NCBI GenBank assembly: GCA_963555825.3
Contig: CAUVXB020000002.1
Coordinates: forward strand, 448,001 to 512,000
DNA from: Alphaproteobacteria bacterium
Lineage (GTDB): Bacteria > Pseudomonadota > Alphaproteobacteria > JAAXGF01
Reading direction: 5' to 3'
DNA: 64,000 bases
Of the stretch, positions 27,360 to 50,696 are shown piece by piece. Below the pieces are notes generated by a model. The model had not been told where the DNA came from. It did no database searches and was given only the letters and a program-made list of their open reading frames with translations. The first letter of the stretch is position 1; each line of letters opens with the position of its first letter. The translations under genes were made by a program, and so were the position numbers.

Positions 27360-27485
27360 TCAGCCCTGGCGCGCCTTGAAGCGGGGGTTGCGCTTGTTGA
27401 TCAGGTAGACGCGGCCCTTGCGGCGCACGATGCGGCAATCGCGATGGCGCTTCTTGGCCGACTTGAATGAGTTCAGAACCTTCAT
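27360..27485 (-). CDS. rpmJ: 50S ribosomal protein L36 (type B, zinc-free)
   Basis: [41 protein letters not shown]. Confidence 0.97.
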
Positions 27486-27775: not shown

Positions 27776-28659
27776 CCGAAGAAGTCGAGCATTTCGGCGA
27801 GCGTCGCTTCGGGCGCCTCCTCGGCAAGGTAGTGGCCGCAGGCGAGCGCGCGGCCCGAGACCGGGCCGTCGGCGACCTCGCGCCAGGTCGCGAGCACGTC
27901 GTAGGTGCGGTGCACCAGCCCGGCGTCGCCCCACAGCGCCAAGAGCGGGCAGGCGATGCGGCGCCCGGCCTCGCGGTCGGCGCGGTCGTCGACCAGATCG
28001 ACGGTCGCGGCGGCGCGGTAGTCCTCGCAGGTCGCGTGGATCACCGCCGGGTCGGTGAAACAGCGTTCGTACTCGGCGAGGCACGCGGGGTCGGCGACCG
28101 CCTCGATACCGTGCGGGCCGGCCGCCGCGCCCCGGCCGCGCAGGTAAAACGACGGGTCGGCGCCGATCAGCGTCTCGGGAAACGGCTCGGGCTGGACCAG
28201 GAAGAACCAGTGGAAGTAACCGAGCGCGAAGGCCATGTCGGTGCGCTCGTACATGGTCAGCGTCGGCGCGATGTCGAGCACCGCGGCGCGCGTCACACGC
28301 GCGGCGTGATCGAGGCACATCCGATGCGTCACCCGCCCGCCCCGGTCGTGCCCGGCGACGGCGAAACACTCGAACCCCAGCCCGGCCATCAGCGCCACCT
28401 GGTCGCCCGCCATGGCCCGGAAGCTGTACGCCTCGTGCCGGGCGTCGCTCGCCGGTTTCGCGCTGTCGCCATAGCCGCGAAGATCGCTCATCACCACGGT
28501 AAACCGCTCGGCGAGCGCCGGCGCGATCTTGGCCCACATGACATGGGTCTGTGGGTAGCCGTGCAGCAGCAACAACGGCGACCCCGCCCCGCCAATGCGA
28601 TAGGCGATCTCGACCCCGGTCGCGACCGTCTGCTTGCGGAACTCGAAGCCGTCGAGCAT
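27772..28659 (-). CDS. Haloacetate dehalogenase-like alpha/beta hydrolase
   Basis: HGYPQTH, DLRGYG, GHDRGGR, YFHWFF, CEDYRA and GHYLAEE. Confidence 0.88.
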   Translation of the reverse strand: MLDGFEFRKQTVATGVEIAYRIGGAGSPLLLLHGYPQTHVMWAKIAPALAERFTVVMSDLRGYGDSAKPASDARHEAYSFRAMAGDQVALMAGLGFECFAVAGHDRGGRVTHRMCLDHAARVTRAAVLDIAPTLTMYERTDMAFALGYFHWFFLVQPEPFPETLIGADPSFYLRGRGAAAGPHGIEAVADPACLAEYERCFTDPAVIHATCEDYRAAATVDLVDDRADREAGRRIACPLLALWGDAGLVHRTYDVLATWREVADGPVSGRALACGHYLAEEAPEATLAEMLDFFG

Positions 28660-28690
28660 GGCGCGTCTCCCCCCTCGGCTGTGCGTCCGG

Positions 28691-29750
28691 CTACGTGCCC
28701 TCGTCCGGTTCGTAGTCTCCGAACTTGATCTCCGCATCGGGCAGGGCCTCACGCAATGCGTCGACGTCCTCGCGACGCACCGGACAACCTGTAACGATCA
28801 CCCGCTTCAAATTCGTCAGCCCGTGCAGGGGCGCCAGATCATTGACCTGGGCGCCTTCGAGGTAGAGCCATTGCAGGCTTGTCAGCGCGGCCAGGGGTGC
28901 CAGGTCTTGGACCTGGGTGCCTTCGAGGTAGAGCATTTCCAGGCTTGTCAGCGCAGTCAGGGGCGCCAGGTCTTGGACCTGCGTGCCTGCGAGGGAGACC
29001 GTTTCCAGGTTTGTCAGCGCGGCCAGGGGCGCCGAGTCTTGGACCTGTGTGGCGTAGAGGTTGAGCTCTTTCAGTCTTGTCAGCCCGGCCAGAGGAGTCA
29101 GGTCTTGGACGAGTGTGGAGTGGAGGTTGAGCTCTTTCAGTCTTGTCAGCCCGGCCAGGGGCGTCAGGTCTTCGAGCTGTGTGCCGTGGAGGTAAAGCCC
29201 TTCCAGGCTTGTCAGCGCGGCCAAAGGCGCCAAGTCTCGCACCGGTGTTTTATTGAGGTCGAGCGACTTTAGGTTTTTCAGGTCGGCCAGGAGCGCCACG
29301 CCTTCGATGTCGCTGTCGGCGAGATCGATTTTCTCGACCTGCGGATAGTCTTCCCGCGTCACGTCTTCGACATCTATGTTCAGAGCCCGGGCGATCGCTT
29401 CCCGGATGATCTTCGCTTCGTCGGGAGCGCCGAGGTCCGCAATGACAACCGCCTCCTCTGGATACGGAATATGCATTAGCGCACCCAGGTTTCGATCCGC
29501 GAGCAGGTGGAGATATCGATGAAAGCTGGCCGTTTCGACGACTTCGCGGAATCGTTCCGGAACCCGGTCTAGGACCGCCTCGCGCTCCTGCTCCGCAGTC
29601 TCGTCGCGCTTGCCCACCGCCGCCTCGGCGTGCGCCTCGTCGCCACCGCGCGCTCTGCCTAGGGCGTCGATCTCGGATTGCGAAAGGCGAAGGAAGGGCT
29701 CTTCATCGGGGTCTCGCGCCACCGCCGCGGACCAGGCGCGGAAAAAGCCG
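28691..29750 (-). CDS. Leucine-rich-repeat region (eight 22-aa internalin-like repeats), probably the C-terminus of the KAP NTPase
   Basis: Repeats of type LTxLxxLxLxxTQVQDLAPLAx; frame stays open upstream to the frameshift point. Confidence 0.85.
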
Positions 29751-30936
29751 TTCCCGTCTTCGAACCGATCAACGTCTCCATGCGGTAGGGTGGTGGGCCG
29801 AGGATACGGCGCAGCAGGAAATCCTGGACGCCTTGTTCCGGGGTCAGCGGCTCGACACCCGTCGCCGCGATAAGCTTGGAGCGGCGCACGCCCGTGGCGT
29901 AAATCAACACGGAGTTGACCAGTCGCTTGACCTCGCGCGGCGAGCGCTTCGCTAGGTCGATGATGACGGGCTCCAGCGCGTCTTCCCGGTGCTCCAGGCT
30001 TTTCCAGGTCTCGTTCCTGGCGACGATCCCGGCGAAGAACGTTTCGACCTCCCCCTCCGTGGGCGCGAGCGTAATTTCGACCTGGAACATCTTGGCCAGG
30101 TAGTCGCGCGCCTTTTCTTCGTCTACGCCCATCTCGCCGTACCGTTTGACGACGAGCTGATCGACGACGGTCTTATCGACGCCGACCACGAACATCAAAC
30201 GCTCGATGTTGAGGTAGAGCTTCAACGCCTCGAGCACTTGGAGCGCGACATCCGGCATGCAGCGGTCGAGGTCGTCGATGAAGACGACCAGGCGCTCCTT
30301 TTCCGCAAGCGAGCTCTCCACCCACGCGCCCATCACCTTTTCGAATTCGTTGAGATAGGCGGCCGCCGGGGACACCGTCTCTTCCAGGTCTTGCGCGATG
30401 TCCTTGAGCGCCGCCAAGTCTGCCTCGACGACGCCAACTGAAACCTTCGTGCTGGTAAGAACCTTGATGACGCTGCGGCCCAGGAAGCGGCCGAGGTCCT
30501 TGGCGTCGCGGGTAAACGACTCGAGGGTGTAATCCTCGTCCGACAGGCAGGCCAGGATTACCTCGGCGACCAGCCCGCGCCACACCTCCTCGCGCTCGTG
30601 GTATTTCCACGGATAGAACCAGGCGGTGCGCACGATGCGGACGTCTTCGTCGTTCTTCAGCTCCGTCTTGGCCCACTGGTTCCACTGGTCGAGCCGGCCC
30701 TCCAGCCAGCGCATCGCGGATGTTTTGCCGGTGCCCCAGTCGCCGTAGATGGCGGCCGCGAAGGGTGTCTCGGTCCCCGGATGACGCAGGATCTCGAAGA
30801 GCGGCCCGACCTGGCGCGCCAAGTCGAAGGTGTCGGCGTCCGGGTCGTCGGACGCGAGCGCCGAGTCAGGGACGATCGTGAGTGTAGGCGGTTGCGTGAC
30901 CCAATCGGGGATTTCGGGTTTGTCGTCGTTGGCCAT
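29659..30936 (-). CDS. KAP-family P-loop NTPase
   Basis: Walker A GDWGTGKT, FYPWKY, Walker B VVFIDDLDRC, YLAKMFQV and SPREVKRLVN. Confidence 0.88.
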   Translation of the reverse strand: MANDDKPEIPDWVTQPPTLTIVPDSALASDDPDADTFDLARQVGPLFEILRHPGTETPFAAAIYGDWGTGKTSAMRWLEGRLDQWNQWAKTELKNDEDVRIVRTAWFYPWKYHEREEVWRGLVAEVILACLSDEDYTLESFTRDAKDLGRFLGRSVIKVLTSTKVSVGVVEADLAALKDIAQDLEETVSPAAAYLNEFEKVMGAWVESSLAEKERLVVFIDDLDRCMPDVALQVLEALKLYLNIERLMFVVGVDKTVVDQLVVKRYGEMGVDEEKARDYLAKMFQVEITLAPTEGEVETFFAGIVARNETWKSLEHREDALEPVIIDLAKRSPREVKRLVNSVLIYATGVRRSKLIAATGVEPLTPEQGVQDFLLRRILGPPPYRMETLIGSKTGTAFSAPGPRRWRETPMKSPSFAFRNPRSTP

Positions 30937-31125
30937 GGCTTCGGCTCCCGCGTGGCGCGTCCAACCCATAATGCCATGGCCCGCGCCTAAGTTAAGCGAT
31001 TACTCGAAACTTCAACCACGTGGCCGTCCCGATTGGCGACGTCGCGGTCTCCGCCGGTTTGCCGAGCGAACACTGCCCGCCAGGATCACCCGGCGATCGA
31101 ATGAAAGATCATGCAAATTTAATAG

Positions 31126-31148
31126 TTGCGAATGATTGTCAATCGCAA
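31126..31148. promoter_or_regulatory. Putative iron-responsive operator (Fur-family-like)
   Basis: TTGCGAATGATTGTCAATCGCAA palindrome in an AT-rich patch upstream of an Fe(III)-binding protein. Confidence 0.6.
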
Positions 31149-31335
31149 TACAGAGGAAGCAACGCCTGTCGAACCGCGTCGCGATCCACGCGGTTTGATC
31201 CATGTCTTGGCGCGGCGCAGCGCGCGGGTCAGATATGCCGTCTTGGCGGTTGACCGGCGGGCGCGACCGGGGCGACTGTCGTGGCGCGGCGCGGCCAAGG
31301 GGGCCGTGTCGCCGTGTTTAGGGAGTGAAGCGTCG

Positions 31336-33603: not shown

Positions 33604-34281
33604 ATGTGCGGCCGCTTCACCCTGCGCACGCCGGCCCATCGCCTCGCCGAGGCGTTCGGCGTCGACGCCCTGCCCAACCTCGCGCCGCGCTACAACATCG
33701 CGCCGACCCAGGACGTCGTCGCCATCCGGCAGGGCGGCGCGGGCCGCGAGCTCACGATGCTGCGCTGGGGCCTGATCCCGGGCTGGGCCAAGGACCCGGC
33801 GATCGGCGCCCGCATGATCAACGCGCGCGCCGAGACGGTGGCCGAGAAGCCGTCGTTCCGCGCCGCCTTCCGCCAGCGCCGCTGCCTGGTCGCCGCCGAC
33901 GGCTTCTACGAATGGCGCAAGACGGCCGAGGCGCCCAAGGCGCCCAAGCAGCCCTACTACATCCGGCTCGAGAGCGGAGAGCCGTTCGCCATCGCCGGGC
34001 TGTGGGAGCGCTGGCGCGACCCGGCGGGCGAGACGGTCGAGAGCTGCACGCTGATCACCACCGAGGCCAACCCGGCGCTGGCGCCGATCCACCACCGAAT
34101 GCCTGTCATCCTGGCGTCCGCCGATTACGACGCCTGGCTAGACGCCCGGCCCGCCTCGCCCGCCGCGCTGCACGATCTGCTGCGCCCCTACCCCGGCGCC
34201 GAGATGACTGCGTTCCCGATCAACCGCCACGTCAACAACGTGCGCAACGACGACCCGGGCTGCATCGAGGCGCTCGCCTAG
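33604..34281 (+). CDS. SOS response-associated peptidase (SRAP/YedK family)
   Basis: MCGRF, YNIAPTQ, WGLIP, INARAE, GFYEW and IHHRMP. Confidence 0.95.
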   Translation: MCGRFTLRTPAHRLAEAFGVDALPNLAPRYNIAPTQDVVAIRQGGAGRELTMLRWGLIPGWAKDPAIGARMINARAETVAEKPSFRAAFRQRRCLVAADGFYEWRKTAEAPKAPKQPYYIRLESGEPFAIAGLWERWRDPAGETVESCTLITTEANPALAPIHHRMPVILASADYDAWLDARPASPAALHDLLRPYPGAEMTAFPINRHVNNVRNDDPGCIEALA

Positions 34282-34323
34282 CAACCAATTCGATCGAACT
34301 CTTCCAGCCTGCGCCAATCTTAT
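34278..34323 (+). repeat. 5' fragment of the structured repeat (R4)
   Basis: CTAG(stop)..CTTCCAGCCTGCGCCAATCTTAT matches the 5' arm of R2. Confidence 0.65.
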
Positions 34324-34526
34324 CCGCGTCGCCGTCGCGCGCGACCCGGGGGTGGTGGCCGGTCCGCGGATGGAGAAATATCGACCTAACTTCAAATGGT
34401 TATCAATTCTTCCCTAAACATACATGCATAAACAAACTAACTATTGACATCATAAATGAGTGTATATTTATATGCATCTTTGGGTAGGCTGCCAACGAGG
34501 ATTTCCGACACCGGGAGATCACGGCC

Positions 34527-35072
34527 ATGCCGCTGCAACGATCCATAGCGCTGATCTCCGCGCTCTTGTTATGGGGCTGCCAGCACCTCGTGTACGGTGT
34601 GCCACTCGAGCTTTGGCACGGGATGACAGAAGCCGAACGCCTCGCGGCGATGGATGCGTACACGGCAAGACAACAAGCGTCCTACGCCGTTGCCGAAGCA
34701 AATCGGCTGGAGGAGGAGCGGAAGCACGCCGAGGCGTACGCCAACTACGGTCCCATCGACTATCTGCTTTTGGGCCTCTTCCACATCGATACGAAGTACC
34801 GTCACGATTACCGTTACGTCTACGATTACGGCTACGGCCATGATTACGGCTACGGCTATGATTACGGCTACCATGGCGGCGCCGGACAGGCCTCGCGGCC
34901 CCAGGCGGCGAACCGGAGCGCCGGGTCGTCGCAGCTTGCGGCGCCGCAACGCGCGGGCCGCGAGGAGAGCCTGTCGCGCAAAGACAGGGGGCGCGAGGCG
35001 AGCCTCTCGCACAAAGAAAGAGGGCGCGAGCGCGTCGAGGCGAACGACGAAAACCGCGGCCATGAAAACTAA
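34527..35072 (+). CDS. Hypothetical lipoprotein with a Tyr/Gly/Asp low-complexity repeat
   Basis: Lipobox-like LLWGC; YDYGYGHDYGYGYDYGY; duplicated RE.SLS.K.RG. Confidence 0.6.
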   Translation: MPLQRSIALISALLLWGCQHLVYGVPLELWHGMTEAERLAAMDAYTARQQASYAVAEANRLEEERKHAEAYANYGPIDYLLLGLFHIDTKYRHDYRYVYDYGYGHDYGYGYDYGYHGGAGQASRPQAANRSAGSSQLAAPQRAGREESLSRKDRGREASLSHKERGRERVEANDENRGHEN

Positions 35073-35318
35073 AGAATCGTCCGATCGAATGGAATCGATC
35101 GGATGATGCCGACCCGCGTCACCTTGTCGGATACAGGGTGGCCGCCGCTCCCGCGGTAAGCGGCTAGGCATCGCGCCGCATGACGTACTAAAGGTGGGCT
35201 TCGCAGCGGTCATTTCCTGTCCTTGGTCCTGGGGCTCAACGATCGATTCTGACGGACTCGATCGGGGAACCCCTGCGGCGGACCTATAGCAACGCGCTAT
35301 CCTCATCGGCCTAAGGAG

Positions 35319-36059
35319 ATGGCGGAGAAACATCGAACAACGAGACCGATCTTGGTGTTGGCGGCTATCTTGGCGCTAAACGGGACGGCTTGCGTCGGGT
35401 TGGATGACGCTAAGAAATGCGCCGAAGGTACAGGCGACGCGGCGCTCGACATCGACTACTGCACGCGTGCGATCGATTCGGGCGTCCTGTCCAAGAAGGA
35501 CTTGGTTGCCACCTTCAATAACCGCGGCAACGCGTATGCCGACAACGGCGAGCATGACCAGGCAATCGCCAATTTCGACCGGGCGATCGACCTCAACCCC
35601 GACTATGCCCTGGCCTTCTACAACCGAGGCCGCGCATACAATTTCAAGAGCGAATACGACCGCGCGATCACCGACTACAGTCAGGCGATACAGCTCAAGT
35701 CCAACTTTGCCGAGGCCTTCACCAATCGGGGTTTCGCGCGCGCTCGTAAGGGGGAATACGACCGCGCGATCGCCGACTACAACCAGGCGATCCGACTCAA
35801 GCCCGACTATGCCCTGGCCTTCTACAACCGGGGCAACGCATACAAAAGCAAGCAAGAATGCGACCGCGCGATCCGCGACTACGACCAGGCAACTCAGCTC
35901 GATCCCGACAATGCCCAAGCGTACGGCAAAATGGGAATGGCCTGCGTACTACAAACCGTGATCTATGATGCGCTATTCAACCGCAAGAAGGATCATGATC
36001 CCGGCAGCCGCCCCCGGAGGCTTCTCGACAAACTCGAGGAACTCAGCGTGACGCCGTGA
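35319..36059 (+). CDS. TPR-repeat protein
   Basis: Four 34-aa AFYNRG..YDRAI.DY.QAI.L.P repeats; AAGGAG RBS. Confidence 0.85.
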   Translation: MAEKHRTTRPILVLAAILALNGTACVGLDDAKKCAEGTGDAALDIDYCTRAIDSGVLSKKDLVATFNNRGNAYADNGEHDQAIANFDRAIDLNPDYALAFYNRGRAYNFKSEYDRAITDYSQAIQLKSNFAEAFTNRGFARARKGEYDRAIADYNQAIRLKPDYALAFYNRGNAYKSKQECDRAIRDYDQATQLDPDNAQAYGKMGMACVLQTVIYDALFNRKKDHDPGSRPRRLLDKLEELSVTP

Positions 36060-36183
36060 GTAAGCGCGGCGCCCCGCGCGTTCGCCTCGATGAATTCGAT
36101 CCCTATTGGCACAATTGGCGGGCGCTGTGGGGCGAAGGGCCGAACAAGGCCTTCGCCTCGGTGCCCAACCCCGACTGGGAGGC

Positions 36184-46945: not shown

Positions 46946-47377
46946 GTGTCCAAGGAGGACCGGAACATGACCGACAATTTTGAGAACAAAGTTGCTGTTG
47001 ATGGGCCTGTGGTAAACGAGGGCGAGCTTGGCTCGTCCACGTTTTCCCCGGGCCAGGTTTCGCCGGCAGGCCCGCTGGGACTTGGCCAGCGGTGGACGGT
47101 GACGCGCAAGCGTGAGGTTGCCCTGCGGCTTTTGCGTGGCGAGCCGGTGGAACTTTTGTCGCGGCAGTTGGGCGTGGAGATTTTCCGGCTCGAGCAGTGG
47201 CGTGAGAAGGCGATCGCCGGGATCGATGCCTCGCTCAAGGAACGCAAGGGCGATCCGGTGAAGGCGGAACTGGACATCGCCATGAAGCGGATCGGGGAGT
47301 TGATCATGCAGGTGGAACTGCTGGAGGCCAAGACGGAGACGTCCGGCCCTTTGGGGCGGCGGAGGTCGCGGCGATGA
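46946..47377 (+). CDS. IS OrfA (HTH)
   Basis: RKREVALRLLRGE..LSRQLGV; ATGA overlap with OrfB; start may be 46967. Confidence 0.8.
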   Translation: MSKEDRNMTDNFENKVAVDGPVVNEGELGSSTFSPGQVSPAGPLGLGQRWTVTRKREVALRLLRGEPVELLSRQLGVEIFRLEQWREKAIAGIDASLKERKGDPVKAELDIAMKRIGELIMQVELLEAKTETSGPLGRRRSRR

Positions 47378-48285
47378 GTGCCGCCACCTCTCCCGGCACG
47401 GGTTTGGCCTACGGCCTCCAGCGGGTCTGTGCGGCCTGGGGTTTTGCCCGTTCCTCGTTCTACGCCATGAAATCCCGGCAGCAGGCCACCGCTGAGCGCC
47501 CACCAGCAAAGCGCCGGGGACCGAAGCCCTCGATCTCGGACGAGGCTCTGCTGGTGGCCATCGAGGCCGACCTGGAGGCATCCCCCTGGGAGGGCGAGGG
47601 ACACCGCAAGGTCTGGGCTCGGCTTCGGGTCTGTCGTGGCATCCGTGTTTCCCGCAAGCGGGGGCTCCGGGTGATGCGCGAGAACAACCTGCTCTCGCCC
47701 CATCGCTGCCGCCGCCGTGGCGGAAATCCCCATGTCGGTGAGATCATCACCCATGCCCCCAACCTCATGTGGGGCACGGACGGCGTTCGGGTGTTCACGG
47801 TGGACGACGGCTGGGGCTGGATATTCACCGCCATCGAGCATTGGAACGCCGAGTGCGTCGGCTGGCATGTGTGCAAGCGAGGCGACCGCTTCGCCGCCCT
47901 TCAGCCGATCTCCATGGGGCTTGCGAGGCTGTATGCCTCGACCTCCGCCGGTGCGGCGCGGGGGCTGGCCTTGCGGATGGATCACGGCTCCCAGTATCTG
48001 TCGGACCACTTCACCAACCAGATCAAGTTCTGGGGCATCCAGCCGTCCTACGCCTTCGTCGAACAGCCCCAGACCAACGGCGTCGCCGAGAGGTTCAATC
48101 GCACGCTCAAGGAACAGATCATCCATGGCCGCATCTACCGCAACATCGCGGAGCTGCGGAACGCCGTCCGCGGGTTCGTCGAACAGTACAATGCCCAGTG
48201 GATCGTGGAGAAGAACGGCTACCTGAGCCCCGCTCAAGCTCGTCAGGCGTGGCACACCGCGATGTCACTCAGGCCCGCCGCATGA
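47374..48285 (+). CDS. IS OrfB, integrase-core (rve) DDE transposase
   Basis: WGTD, RMDHGSQY and NGVAERFNRTLKE. Confidence 0.92.
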   Translation: MSAATSPGTGLAYGLQRVCAAWGFARSSFYAMKSRQQATAERPPAKRRGPKPSISDEALLVAIEADLEASPWEGEGHRKVWARLRVCRGIRVSRKRGLRVMRENNLLSPHRCRRRGGNPHVGEIITHAPNLMWGTDGVRVFTVDDGWGWIFTAIEHWNAECVGWHVCKRGDRFAALQPISMGLARLYASTSAGAARGLALRMDHGSQYLSDHFTNQIKFWGIQPSYAFVEQPQTNGVAERFNRTLKEQIIHGRIYRNIAELRNAVRGFVEQYNAQWIVEKNGYLSPAQARQAWHTAMSLRPAA

Positions 48286-49356: not shown

Positions 49357-49788
49357 GTGTCCAAGGAGGACCGGAACATGACCGACAATTTTGAGAACAA
49401 AGTTGCTGTTGATGGGCCTGTGGTAAACGAGGGCGAGCTTGGCTCGTCCACGTTTTCCCCGGGCCAGGTTTCGCCGGCAGGCCCGCTGGGACTTGGCCAG
49501 CGGTGGACGGTGACGCGCAAGCGTGAGGTTGCCCTGCGGCTTTTGCGTGGCGAGCCGGTGGAACTTTTGTCGCGGCAGTTGGGCGTGGAGATTTTCCGGC
49601 TCGAGCAGTGGCGTGAGAAGGCGATCGCCGGGATCGATGCCTCGCTCAAGGAACGCAAGGGCGATCCGGTGAAGGCGGAACTGGACATCGCCATGAAGCG
49701 GATCGGGGAGTTGATCATGCAGGTGGAACTGCTGGAGGCCAAGACGGAGACGTCCGGCCCTTTGGGGCGGCGGAGGTCGCGGCGATGA
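49357..49788 (+). CDS. IS OrfA (HTH)
   Basis: Identical to 46946-47377. Confidence 0.8.
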   Translation: MSKEDRNMTDNFENKVAVDGPVVNEGELGSSTFSPGQVSPAGPLGLGQRWTVTRKREVALRLLRGEPVELLSRQLGVEIFRLEQWREKAIAGIDASLKERKGDPVKAELDIAMKRIGELIMQVELLEAKTETSGPLGRRRSRR

Positions 49789-50696
49789 GTGCCGCCACCT
49801 CTCCCGGCACGGGTTTGGCCTACGGCCTCCAGCGGGTCTGTGCGGCCTGGGGTTTTGCCCGTTCCTCGTTCTACGCCATGAAATCCCGGCAGCAGGCCAC
49901 CGCTGAGCGCCCACCAGCAAAGCGCCGGGGACCGAAGCCCTCGATCTCGGACGAGGCTCTGCTGGTGGCCATCGAGGCCGACCTGGAGGCATCCCCCTGG
50001 GAGGGCGAGGGACACCGCAAGGTCTGGGCTCGGCTTCGGGTCTGTCGTGGCATCCGTGTTTCCCGCAAGCGGGGGCTCCGGGTGATGCGCGAGAACAACC
50101 TGCTCTCGCCCCATCGCTGCCGCCGCCGTGGCGGAAATCCCCATGTCGGTGAGATCATCACCCATGCCCCCAACCTCATGTGGGGCACGGACGGCGTTCG
50201 GGTGTTCACGGTGGACGACGGCTGGGGCTGGATATTCACCGCCATCGAGCATTGGAACGCCGAGTGCGTCGGCTGGCATGTGTGCAAGCGAGGCGACCGC
50301 TTCGCCGCCCTTCAGCCGATCTCCATGGGGCTTGCGAGGCTGTATGCCTCGACCTCCGCCGGTGCGGCGCGGGGGCTGGCCTTGCGGATGGATCACGGCT
50401 CCCAGTATCTGTCGGACCACTTCACCAACCAGATCAAGTTCTGGGGCATCCAGCCGTCCTACGCCTTCGTCGAACAGCCCCAGACCAACGGCGTCGCCGA
50501 GAGGTTCAATCGCACGCTCAAGGAACAGATCATCCATGGCCGCATCTACCGCAACATCGCGGAGCTGCGGAACGCCGTCCGCGGGTTCGTCGAACAGTAC
50601 AATGCCCAGTGGATCGTGGAGAAGAACGGCTACCTGAGCCCCGCTCAAGCTCGTCAGGCGTGGCACACCGCGATGTCACTCAGGCCCGCCGCATGA
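49785..50696 (+). CDS. IS OrfB DDE transposase
   Basis: Identical to 47374-48285. Confidence 0.92.
   Translation: MSAATSPGTGLAYGLQRVCAAWGFARSSFYAMKSRQQATAERPPAKRRGPKPSISDEALLVAIEADLEASPWEGEGHRKVWARLRVCRGIRVSRKRGLRVMRENNLLSPHRCRRRGGNPHVGEIITHAPNLMWGTDGVRVFTVDDGWGWIFTAIEHWNAECVGWHVCKRGDRFAALQPISMGLARLYASTSAGAARGLALRMDHGSQYLSDHFTNQIKFWGIQPSYAFVEQPQTNGVAERFNRTLKEQIIHGRIYRNIAELRNAVRGFVEQYNAQWIVEKNGYLSPAQARQAWHTAMSLRPAA

What the first reader, a model, noticed from the sequence alone, without database searches (positions are those of the whole stretch)
28691..30936. KAP NTPase fused to leucine-rich repeats: NLR-like candidate defence sensor
Seen: a KAP-type NTPase ORF overlaps an LRR ORF. Adding one base at ACG-GGA-ACG (~29750, minus strand) gives ..KTGNGFFRAWSAAVARDPDEE.. 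and a single ~750-aa NTPase-linker-8xLRR protein. It is a lone gene among metabolic genes, with no evident N-terminal effector domain or membrane segments. Knowledge: KAP NTPases include the phage-exclusion protein PifA, and NTPase+LRR is the eukaryotic NLR layout, whereas described bacterial STAND sensors mostly use TPR-type repeats. Inference: a pattern-sensing protein, possibly anti-phage.
Basis: partly seen in the sequence, partly recalled or inferred. Interest (0 to 1): 0.72.

Follow-up and report, generated by a model that had tools for sequence, protein, structure and literature searches.

The report
Frameshifted soluble KAP ATPase–LRR gene
This is one gene for a cytoplasmic ATPase joined to a leucine-rich-repeat binding domain, broken in this strain by the loss of a single base; it belongs to a large, unstudied bacterial family built somewhat like innate-immune receptors, whose role in defence is plausible but unproven.

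Summary
On the minus strand, a KAP P-loop NTPase ORF (29659-30969) overlaps an LRR ORF (28691-29722) by 64 nt. A natural intact homologue, P0001 (748 aa), is identical over residues 1-398 and has 4 substitutions after that.

Assembled contigs of two public runs carry the same frameshift, and two others carry the intact allele. It is therefore a real allele, not two genes.

The family is large: 216 clusters at 50% identity at E<=1e-30. It sits mostly in Planctomycetota, Verrucomicrobiota and Alphaproteobacteria MAGs. It is nearly always one ORF: KAP, helical linker, then 4-18 internalin-type LRRs, with no N-terminal effector and no membrane segment.

No neighbouring gene is conserved, no defence-island signal appeared in 20 loci, and no close relative lies on known plasmids or phages.

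Best reading: a ligand-gated ATPase switch, possibly an anti-phage sensor by analogy with PifA and EF_KAP, and inactive here. A defence role is not shown.

The scan had already flagged KAP-LRR genes in two other genomes.

The parts
28691..30936 (-). Whole KAP-LRR gene as it would read if intact (ATG at 30936 to TAG at 28693-28691); broken by a 1-nt deletion in this assembly
   Evidence: P0001 (748 aa) aligns end to end across two frames
29743..30936 (-). Residues 1-398: conserved N-terminal lead (1-45), KAP P-loop NTPase core and helical lid, in frame A
   Evidence: Pfam PF07693 at 105.9 bits. AF2 model m5ac1b2e99a6e has pLDDT 83 and pTM 0.82. Nearest solved folds are Orc1/Cdc6 and RdrA at Z 16.4
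30721..30744 (-). Walker A, GDWGTGKT (residues 65-72)
   Evidence: G65, W67, G68, G70, K71 and T72 are invariant in 29 of 29 and 50 of 50 aligned sequences
30259..30288 (-). Walker B, VVFIDDLDRC (residues 217-226)
   Evidence: D221, D222, L223, D224, R225 and C226 are invariant
29742..29746 (-). Frameshift site: T5 run where the intact allele has T6
   Evidence: Sequence; junction located by tblastn. Contigs of X1 and X5 carry one extra base here; contigs of X15 and X19 do not
29659..29742 (-). Out-of-frame tail of ORF A (27 codons and the stop) created by the frameshift
29339..29743 (-). Residues 399-533 in frame B: helical linker with the conserved motifs FFxxWS, LGxLMxIxYP and IREAIA; no Pfam family
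   Evidence: Mean pairwise identity is 0.31, against 0.53 for the KAP part
28745..29338 (-). Residues 534-731: eight 22-residue internalin-type LRRs plus a C-terminal cap
   Evidence: LRR_4 at E 1.7e-33; repeat register. Foldseek hits include the C. tepidum Roco LRR 6hlu_B (rmsd 1.3 over 205 columns, 37% identity) and internalins
28815..29248 (.). 66-bp tandem periodicity of the LRR-coding DNA (6.6 copies, 80% matches)
   Evidence: the Logan contigs break inside it (table 8)

Best explanation
SHOWN.
- Positions 28691-30936 (minus strand) are a single gene for a soluble 748-residue protein.
- Its order is: a short conserved N-terminal lead, a KAP-family P-loop NTPase with intact Walker A and B motifs, a helical linker of about 135 residues, and eight 22-residue internalin-type leucine-rich repeats.
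- In this strain one T of a T6 run is missing at 29742-29746.
- Translation therefore ends after 398 native residues plus 27 out-of-frame ones. The linker and LRR are cut off, so the copy is a pseudogene or, at best, a KAP-only remnant.
- The intact allele exists in closely related sponge-associated populations.

INFERRED (mechanism of the intact protein).
- It works as a ligand-gated ATPase switch.
- The LRR, whose concave-face positions 2, 3, 5, 7 and 8 are the variable ones and whose repeat number ranges from 4 to 18 in the family, binds a protein ligand.
- Binding is passed through the conserved linker to the KAP domain.
- The KAP domain then changes its nucleotide and assembly state, as its nearest structural relatives do (Orc1/Cdc6 and RdrA of RADAR).
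- No effector domain is fused, so the ATPase assembly itself, or a factor encoded elsewhere, must provide the output.

INFERRED (role). The most likely role is sensing of an invader such as a phage or mobile element. This is by analogy with the KAP proteins shown to act against phages (PifA, and EF_KAP with three relatives) and QatA of the Qat system.
For: Gene structure.

Alleles (contigs only):
- Contigs of X15 (depth 48.6) and X19 (depth 82.9), from two studies, bridge the site without an indel.
- X1 (depth 8.15 of 8.15) and X5 (depth 12.9 of 30) have the extra base.

Family:
- 216 representatives at E<=1e-30 out of 1.84 billion.
- 79 genomic loci, of which 46 are Planctomycetota, 9 Verrucomicrobiota and 8 Alphaproteobacteria (my count).
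- 71 of 76 loci hold a single ORF.

Catalytic motifs are invariant.

The sensor is modular:
- The C-terminus is an LRR in 74 of 120 and 112 of 120 listed hits.
- It is replaced by FGE-sulfatase/C-type-lectin domains in 6 and 5 of them, and by DnaB_C in 3.
- The KAP part is more conserved (0.53 mean pairwise identity) than the LRR (0.44) or the linker (0.31).
- Repeats within one protein resemble each other more (0.55) than repeats of different proteins do (0.41).

Signs of an accessory gene:
- No close homologue in the 40 sampled relatives.
- No shared flanks with the nearest genomic relative, L010.
- GC is 63% against 68-74% in the flanking genes.

KAP precedent:
- PADLOC domain-level matches to PDC-S20, QatA and PifA.
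- PLoS Biol 2026, PMC13552941 (section 9 read): four single-gene KAP NTPases with uncharacterised C-terminal regions protect E. faecalis from phages; for EF_KAP, both Walker B and the C-terminal region were shown to be required.
- PNAS 2024, PMC10907252 (passages): KAP NTPases with C-type-lectin domains are targets of diversity-generating retroelements.
Against: No function was tested.

No effector domain is present in this protein or in any of the 240 listed homologues. In nearly all of the best 150 representatives the KAP domain begins within about 60 residues of the N-terminus.

No neighbouring family recurs in more than 8 of 80 loci. Those that recur are generic Ser/Thr kinases, sulfatases and ECF sigma factors.

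Only 12 of 236 neighbouring ORFs (20 of the 30 prepared loci were sent) hit PADLOC at E<=1e-20. Most are partial generic-domain hits, and no control regions were run.

The window's own neighbours are metabolic genes.

No relative above 30% identity lies in 72,556 plasmid or 50,697 phage records.

Each of the 5 genomes examined has only 1-2 KAP-bearing copies.

Four relatives carry an N-terminal XRE-type HTH, which points to gene regulation as an output.

The allele evidence comes from assembled contigs, not raw reads. One of X15 or X19 may be the window's own source.
Confidence: 0.42

Rival explanations
1. Same molecule and same switch mechanism, but the role is housekeeping signal transduction or gene regulation, like MalT-type ATPase regulators or Roco proteins. 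The LRR would bind a cellular protein or metabolite-bound partner, and the ATPase would gate a regulatory assembly.
For: Four relatives have an N-terminal XRE-type HTH in front of KAP-LRR (P0056, P0097, P0201, P0213). Chromosomal contexts show no defence islands or mobile-element genes. Genomes hold 1-2 copies. The KAP core is strongly conserved across phyla. The closest solved LRR is that of the C. tepidum Roco signalling protein. The family is concentrated in Planctomycetota, Verrucomicrobiota and Myxococcota. That these phyla have large signalling repertoires is my recollection, not a call result.
Against: The gene is missing from the 40 sampled relatives. It has lower GC than its flanks and shares no synteny with L010, which is unusual for a core regulator. 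It is dispensable in this strain, where it is frameshifted. Most members lack any DNA-binding or other output domain. The prokaryotic KAP NTPases with a phenotype named in the papers I read all act against phages.
Confidence: 0.33
2. A eukaryote-like LRR protein used by the sponge symbiont to interact with its host.
For: The stretch is held almost only by sponge-associated runs (X1, X5, X15 and X19 were laid). The LRR resembles internalins. That sponge symbionts are rich in eukaryote-like repeat proteins is my recollection, not tested here.
Against: No hydrophobic N-terminus or membrane segment is present, and the N-terminal half is a cytoplasmic-type ATPase. By their record titles, the family comes mostly from diverse MAGs of Planctomycetota, Verrucomicrobiota and other phyla rather than from sponge symbionts. 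The gene is broken in this symbiont.
Confidence: 0.07
3. The gene is still expressed as a fused protein in this strain, through -1 ribosomal slippage of tRNA-Phe or transcriptional slippage on the U5 run. Alternatively, it functions as two separate polypeptides.
For: A -1 shift on GCU-UUU-U would recreate exactly the intact ...AFFRAWS... sequence (read). Natural KAP-only forms of about 365 aa exist (P0109, P0081).
Against: There is no canonical X-XXY-YYZ heptamer. The 91 nt from the run onward fold no better than shuffles (z +0.96; 167 of 200 shuffles fold at least as well). The run is short for transcriptional slippage. Close relatives simply have the in-frame allele. ORF B has no evident start of its own; its GTG is an internal valine codon of the intact protein.
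Confidence: 0.05
4. The frameshift is an assembly or consensus error at a homopolymer, and the strain really has the intact gene.
For: The lesion is a 1-nt length change in a homopolymer, a typical long-read error. Intact alleles exist in related samples. Other loci with many breaks look error-prone (L049 in 4 pieces, L085 in 3).
Against: Independently built Logan contigs of two runs from two studies, at depths 48.6 and 82.9, agree with the window. The other 23 of the 24 window ORFs scanned with Pfam show no sign of breaks.
Confidence: 0.08

Closest known systems
Single-gene KAP P-loop NTPase antiphage proteins (EF_KAP and three relatives; PLoS Biol 2026, PMC13552941, section 9 read)
   Same: One polypeptide with an N-terminal KAP NTPase and a C-terminal region that is required together with Walker B; no recognised effector domain.
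   Different: EF_KAP is modelled with two transmembrane helices and a C-terminal region of unknown fold, and it was found next to serine recombinases. This family is soluble, its C-terminus is a recognisable LRR, and it is not linked to recombinases or mobile elements in the loci examined.
PifA of the F plasmid (PADLOC PDLC02361)
   Same: A soluble KAP NTPase that lacks transmembrane helices (per the passage in PMC13001434) and senses phage T7.
   Different: The match covers only profile positions 12-322 of 720 (E 3.4e-16). PifA has no LRR and is plasmid-borne.
QatA of the QatABCD system (NCBIfam NF041923)
   Same: The KAP NTPase core is related.
   Different: The score is 94.5 bits against a cut-off of 600, covering only part of the model. 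No QatBCD genes lie nearby.
RdrA of the RADAR defence system and Orc1/Cdc6 AAA+ ATPases
   Same: Best structural matches of the KAP domain: 8fnt_B at Z 16.4 with 286 residues aligned; 2qby_B at Z 16.4 with 257 aligned.
   Different: Sequence identity is 10-14%. There was no sequence-level PDB hit (0 at E<=1). No RdrB-like deaminase partner is present.
NLR / Avs / bNACHT STAND receptors
   Same: An NTPase followed by a C-terminal repeat sensor. The NOD modules of ZAR1, Avs3 and CED-4 align at Z 11.4-12.9.
   Different: The NTPase belongs to the KAP family, not to NACHT or NB-ARC. There is no N-terminal effector or adaptor domain.
Roco proteins (LRR-Roc-COR), for example from Chlorobium tepidum
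   Same: The LRR is the closest solved match: 6hlu_B, rmsd 1.3 A over 205 columns, 37% identity.
   Different: In Roco the LRR is N-terminal to a Ras-like GTPase. Here it is C-terminal to a KAP ATPase, and there are no Roc or COR domains.

Membership tests
KAP family P-loop NTPase (Pfam PF07693) | Match to the family profile above the curated cut-off | tested here: met
   105.9 bits against a cut-off of 20, covering profile positions 8-290 of 293
KAP family P-loop NTPase (Pfam PF07693) | Walker A GxxxxGK[ST] and Walker B hhhhDD | tested here: met
   GDWGTGKT (65-72) and VVFIDDLDRC (217-226), invariant in the 29- and 50-sequence alignments
KAP family P-loop NTPase (Pfam PF07693) | Transmembrane helices in or next to the P-loop domain. 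These are typical of many KAPs and absent from PifA, according to the passages read in PMC13001434. | tested here: not met
   The highest 19-residue hydropathy mean is 1.24. A helical insert at residues 115-209 (low confidence at 162-193) lies between Walker A and Walker B. The protein therefore belongs to the soluble subset.
STAND / NLR (NACHT, NB-ARC) | NACHT or NB-ARC type NTPase domain | tested here: not met
   No NACHT or NB-ARC Pfam hit at E<=0.01. AAA_16 scores 24.2 bits, below its cut-off of 32.6. Structural similarity to NLR NODs (Z 11.4-12.9) is lower than to Orc/Cdc6 and RdrA (Z 16.4).
STAND / NLR (NACHT, NB-ARC) | C-terminal repeat sensor | tested here: met
   Eight LRRs
STAND / NLR (NACHT, NB-ARC) | N-terminal effector or adaptor domain | tested here: not met
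   Only about 45 conserved residues precede the KAP profile match, and they have no Pfam family
PifA (PADLOC PDLC02361) | Full-length match to the PifA profile | tested here: not met
   Profile positions 12-322 of 720 only, E 3.4e-16
QatA / Qat system | NCBIfam equivalog score of at least 600, with qatBCD neighbours | tested here: not met
   94.5 bits; the neighbours are metabolic genes
PDC-S20 (PADLOC candidate single-gene system) | Match over most of the profile | tested here: inconclusive
   E 2.1e-25, but only profile positions 26-280 of 464. PADLOC gives no cut-off here.
Class 1 internalins | NCBIfam exception-model score, with secretion and anchoring signals | tested here: not met
   120 bits against a cut-off of 1050; no hydrophobic N-terminus. 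Only the LRR type is shared.
Roco | Roc GTPase and COR domains next to the LRR | tested here: not met
   No such Pfam hits

The most novel reading that the evidence does not exclude
KAP-LRR proteins are a widespread class of bacterial cytoplasmic pattern receptors with no fused effector. A leucine-rich-repeat sensor gates a KAP ATPase whose own ATP-driven assembly, rather than a fused toxin, blocks the invader. This would be an LRR-based counterpart of NLR immunity, concentrated in Planctomycetota and Verrucomicrobiota. The T5/T6 polymorphism in this sponge symbiont would then be a natural loss-of-function allele.
Probability: 0.22. Interest if true: 0.75.

Novelty: new variant of a known kind. 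Interest (0 to 1): 0.42.

Why it matters
Bacterial relatives of NLR receptors described so far use STAND NTPases, mostly with TPR-like sensors and fused effectors. Experimental work on KAP NTPases as single-gene defences began only recently (PMC13552941).

A soluble KAP ATPase with a true LRR sensor and no effector is a distinct architecture. I found it described in no paper I could search. It nevertheless forms about 216 clusters at 50% identity, almost all in uncultured lineages.

If it senses invaders, two things would follow. NTPase-plus-LRR sensing would not be confined to eukaryotes. Defence candidates would also be added in phyla where, to my recollection (not tested here), few defence systems have been characterised.

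If it is a regulator, it would define a new type of signal-transducing ATPase.

For this window alone the finding is modest: a frameshifted accessory gene. The intact and broken alleles in related symbiont populations do offer a natural comparison.

Tried and rejected
- Homodimer test. Complex prediction on two copies of the KAP domain with ATP gave no verdict (score 0.01, mark 0.42). This is no evidence either way.
- ESM Atlas search with the linker (residues 395-535): no usable hit.
- phmmer of the KAP part against PDB sequences: 0 hits at E<=1.
- Conserved operon partner. All-against-all blastp of six-frame ORFs from 80 loci found none. The most recurrent neighbour family, Ser/Thr kinases, occurs in 8 loci at varying distance and orientation.
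- Synteny with the nearest genomic relative, L010: none outside the gene.
- Promoter and terminator scan of 28400-31300: 0 promoter-like sites and 2 terminator-like sites, against 2.7 expected. Uninformative for this high-GC organism.
- Frameshift-stimulating RNA structure: none.
- Plasmid and phage collections: only distant KAPs below 30% identity. These collections hold mostly cultured hosts, so this is weak evidence.
- Runs X6-X14 hold small shares (0.06-0.13) of the stretch.
- The founding KAP paper (Aravind et al. 2004) could not be fetched. What I say of it comes second-hand from passages in PMC13001434 and PMC13552941. [quoted passage not shown]
- Supplementary files of the papers are closed. 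The supplements of PMC13552941 and PMC10907252 may list KAP proteins with LRR C-termini that I could not see.
- Of the 359 neighbouring ORFs prepared from 30 loci, only 236 (20 loci, the last one in part) were scanned with PADLOC. No matched control regions were scanned.
Full report
OBSERVATION

On the minus strand, one search lists a 436-aa ORF (29659..30969) and a 343-aa ORF (28691..29722). They overlap by 64 nt and lie in different frames. Pfam assigns the first to KAP_NTPase (E 3e-30, 105.9 bits against a cut-off of 20). It assigns the second to LRR_4 (E 1.7e-33) and LRR_8. NCBIfam shows only sub-threshold likeness to QatA and to internalins.

A search of 5.8 billion proteins with the KAP ORF returned P0001, a 748-aa protein. 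It is 100% identical over 91% of the query and carries both KAP and LRR Pfam families. By tblastn, P0001 residues 1-398 are identical to frame A starting at the ATG at 30936. Residues 399-748 follow in frame B with four real substitutions. The two further mismatches at the start of that alignment lie upstream of the junction and are frame artefacts.

The junction reads ...KTGTAF|FRAWS.... The window has GCTTTTTCC, a T5 run at 29742-29746, where one more T restores the frame. Its proposed insertion point is 5-10 nt too far upstream, so its repaired peptide is wrong in two residues.

IS THE FRAMESHIFT REAL?

Only assembled Logan contigs were available.
- Contigs of X15 (depth 48.6; 29129-31050; no gaps) and X19 (depth 82.9; 29129-30882; no differences) bridge the site and agree with the window. 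They come from two studies.
- X1 (sponge metagenome; depth 8.15 of 8.15) and one contig of X5 (12.9 of 30) have one extra base at the run, which is the intact allele.

One of X15 and X19 may be the window's own source, so at most one of them is independent. I take the frameshift to be a real allele, with residual doubt of about 8%.

P0002 (418 aa, 93% identical) looks like a differently broken version from another assembly. I judged this by eye from its sequence and did not analyse its DNA.

Among 76 loci that hold the gene, 71 have a single ORF. Five are split: this window, L049, L085, L065 and L066.

The 91 nt from the run onward fold no better than shuffles (z +0.96). Nothing therefore suggests programmed frameshifting.

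ANATOMY

AlphaFold2 on P0001 with a 29-sequence alignment gave pLDDT 81.4 and pTM 0.68. The KAP part alone, with 50 sequences, gave pLDDT 83 and pTM 0.82.

The order of parts is:
- A conserved but short N-terminal lead (residues 1-45; D24, P45 and R51 invariant in the 29-sequence alignment, D24 and R51 also in the 50-sequence one).
- Walker A, GDWGTGKT (65-72).
- A helical insert between Walker A and Walker B (115-209, low confidence at 162-193).
- Walker B, VVFIDDLDRC (217-226).
- A helical lid with the invariant motif PRExKRxxN (333-341).
- A helical linker (399-533) with the motifs FFxxWS, LGxLMxIxYP and IREAIA and no Pfam family.
- Eight 22-residue repeats (534-709) and a capping unit.

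No segment is hydrophobic enough for a membrane helix; the highest 19-residue mean is 1.24.

The LRR matches internalins and, most closely, the LRR of the C. tepidum Roco protein (6hlu_B; rmsd 1.3 A over 205 columns; 37% identity).

The KAP domain has no sequence-level relative in the PDB. Structurally it is nearest to Orc1/Cdc6 and to RdrA of RADAR (Z 16.4). TnsC, BrxC, plant NLR NODs, Avs3 and CED-4 follow at Z 11-14.

THE FAMILY

phmmer with the KAP part against 1.84 billion representatives found 21,247 proteins at E<=1e-3, 6,405 at 1e-10 and 216 at 1e-30. The last group is this subfamily. In nearly all of the best 150 the KAP domain starts within about 60 residues of the N-terminus.

Domain content of the listed hits (my counts of the tables):
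- Near-length hits: 74 of 120 carry LRR families, 6 carry FGE-sulfatase and 40 carry neither. Many of those 40 are 355-378 aa or lie on short contigs.
- Longer hits: 112 of 120 carry LRR, 5 carry FGE-sulfatase and 3 carry DnaB_C.
- None carries a recognised effector such as TIR, a nuclease or a caspase.

Pfam on 16 variants shows four proteins with an N-terminal XRE-type HTH before KAP-LRR. It also shows KAP+DnaB_C, KAP+FGE, KAP-only (365 aa) and KAP with an unassigned C-terminus.

In genomes 86 stretches encode relatives. Of the 79 loci kept, 46 are Planctomycetota, 9 Verrucomicrobiota, 8 Alphaproteobacteria, 2 Haliangium and 2 Armatimonadota. The rest are single lineages, including three distant ones. 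78 of the 79 record titles say MAG.

Conservation and repeats:
- The KAP part is more conserved (mean pairwise identity 0.53) than the LRR (0.44) or the linker (0.31).
- Repeat number ranges from 4 to 18.
- Repeats within one protein are more alike (median 0.55; best pair 0.77) than repeats of different proteins (0.41).
- The variable positions are 2, 3, 5, 7 and 8 of the repeat, which form the concave face.
- At the DNA level the window's LRR is a 66-bp tandem array.

CONTEXT

In the window the gene lies between glcDEF-like oxidase genes, a GFA protein and an alpha/beta hydrolase on one side, and a solute-binding protein, TauD and SRAP on the other.

Its GC is 63%, against 68-74% in the flanks and a median of 68.5% for window ORFs.

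None of the 40 sampled relatives, including 12 of the same family, has a close homologue. The best match is 39% identity over residues 185-311. The nearest genomic relative, L010, shares no flanking genes with the window.

Across 80 loci no neighbouring family recurs in more than 8. Those that do recur are Ser/Thr kinases, sulfatases and ECF sigma factors.

PADLOC scans covered 236 neighbouring ORFs within +/-8 kb, from 20 of the 30 prepared loci. They gave 12 hits at E<=1e-20 (6 of 115; 6 of 121).
- Three are kinase domains.
- The others are partial AAA, helicase or mad2/mad3-type matches.
- The near-full-length ones are PDC-S28 in L011, a DinG-like helicase in L036, and mad3 in L018 and L035.
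- No recognisable multi-gene system was seen.
- No control regions were scanned, so this shows no evident enrichment rather than a measured absence.

Five genomes hold 1-2 KAP-bearing copies each. Plasmid and phage collections hold only distant KAPs below 30% identity.

INTERPRETATION

Shown: a single gene broken by a 1-nt deletion; a soluble KAP-linker-LRR architecture; a large family of mostly single-ORF members; a modular C-terminus; an accessory, patchy distribution.

Inferred: the intact protein is a ligand-gated ATPase switch. Its LRR binds a ligand, and its KAP domain changes nucleotide and assembly state.

For the biological role I give about 0.42 to invader sensing. All prokaryotic KAP NTPases with a phenotype in the papers I read act against phages:
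- PifA and the Qat system (passages in PMC13001434 and PMC8195603).
- EF_KAP and three others; for EF_KAP, Walker B and the C-terminal region were both shown to be needed (PMC13552941, section 9).
- KAP proteins with C-type-lectin domains are targets of diversity-generating retroelements (PMC10907252, passages).

I give about 0.33 to a regulatory or signalling role. The HTH-fused relatives, the ordinary chromosomal contexts, the low copy number and the Roco-like LRR favour it.

Minor rivals are a host-interaction protein of the sponge symbiont, residual expression by slippage, and an assembly error.

COMPARISON AND NOVELTY

The protein meets the defining features of the KAP family except the membrane helices, as PifA does. 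It fails the tests for STAND/NLR membership (NTPase type and effector domain), and for PifA, QatA, internalins and Roco. Its relation to PDC-S20 is inconclusive.

It works like an NLR only in layout.

Four full-text searches found no paper that describes a KAP-LRR protein. [quoted passage not shown] Supplements were closed.

Two earlier notes of this scan describe KAP-LRR genes in other genomes. One of them led me to PMC13552941.

I rate the finding a new variant of a known kind, of moderate interest. The copy in this window is itself inactive.

Noticed in passing
window 46946-48285 and 49357-50696 (+): Two ORF pairs of identical sizes (143 aa + 303 aa), 2.4 kb apart. The larger ORF of the first pair has rve integrase-core domains. 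This looks like two copies of one IS element.
   Followed up: partly
G000:C1:1927727-1928452 (L008:1381-2763, +): A second, distant KAP NTPase (460 aa, 32% identity) lies elsewhere in the same genome, without an LRR. Its PADLOC pattern is similarly domain-level only (PDC-S20 at E 8.4e-25).
   Followed up: partly
window 34200-36100: A lower-GC stretch (56-63%) holds an ORF with no Pfam hit and a TPR-repeat protein, just after the SRAP gene. It may be another acquired segment.
   Followed up: no
P0056, P0097, P0201, P0213; P0195, P0205, P0230: Some relatives of the same KAP subfamily carry an N-terminal XRE-type HTH in front of KAP-LRR. Others replace the LRR with a C-terminal DnaB_C (RecA-like) domain.
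   Followed up: partly
L018:16608-20567 and L035:6775-9657: In two Planctomycetota loci a large protein lies within a few kb of the KAP-LRR gene. Its C-terminal part matches the PADLOC mad3 profile almost end to end (339 and 331 bits).
   Followed up: no
window 27360-27485 (-): The C-terminal 41 residues of a listed small ORF read like ribosomal protein L36. This identification is from memory and was not tested.
   Followed up: no
window 29063-29158: Logan contigs of all three near-identical runs break inside the LRR array, where adjacent repeats share long identical stretches of DNA. Short-read assemblies of this gene are therefore often fragmented.
   Followed up: partly
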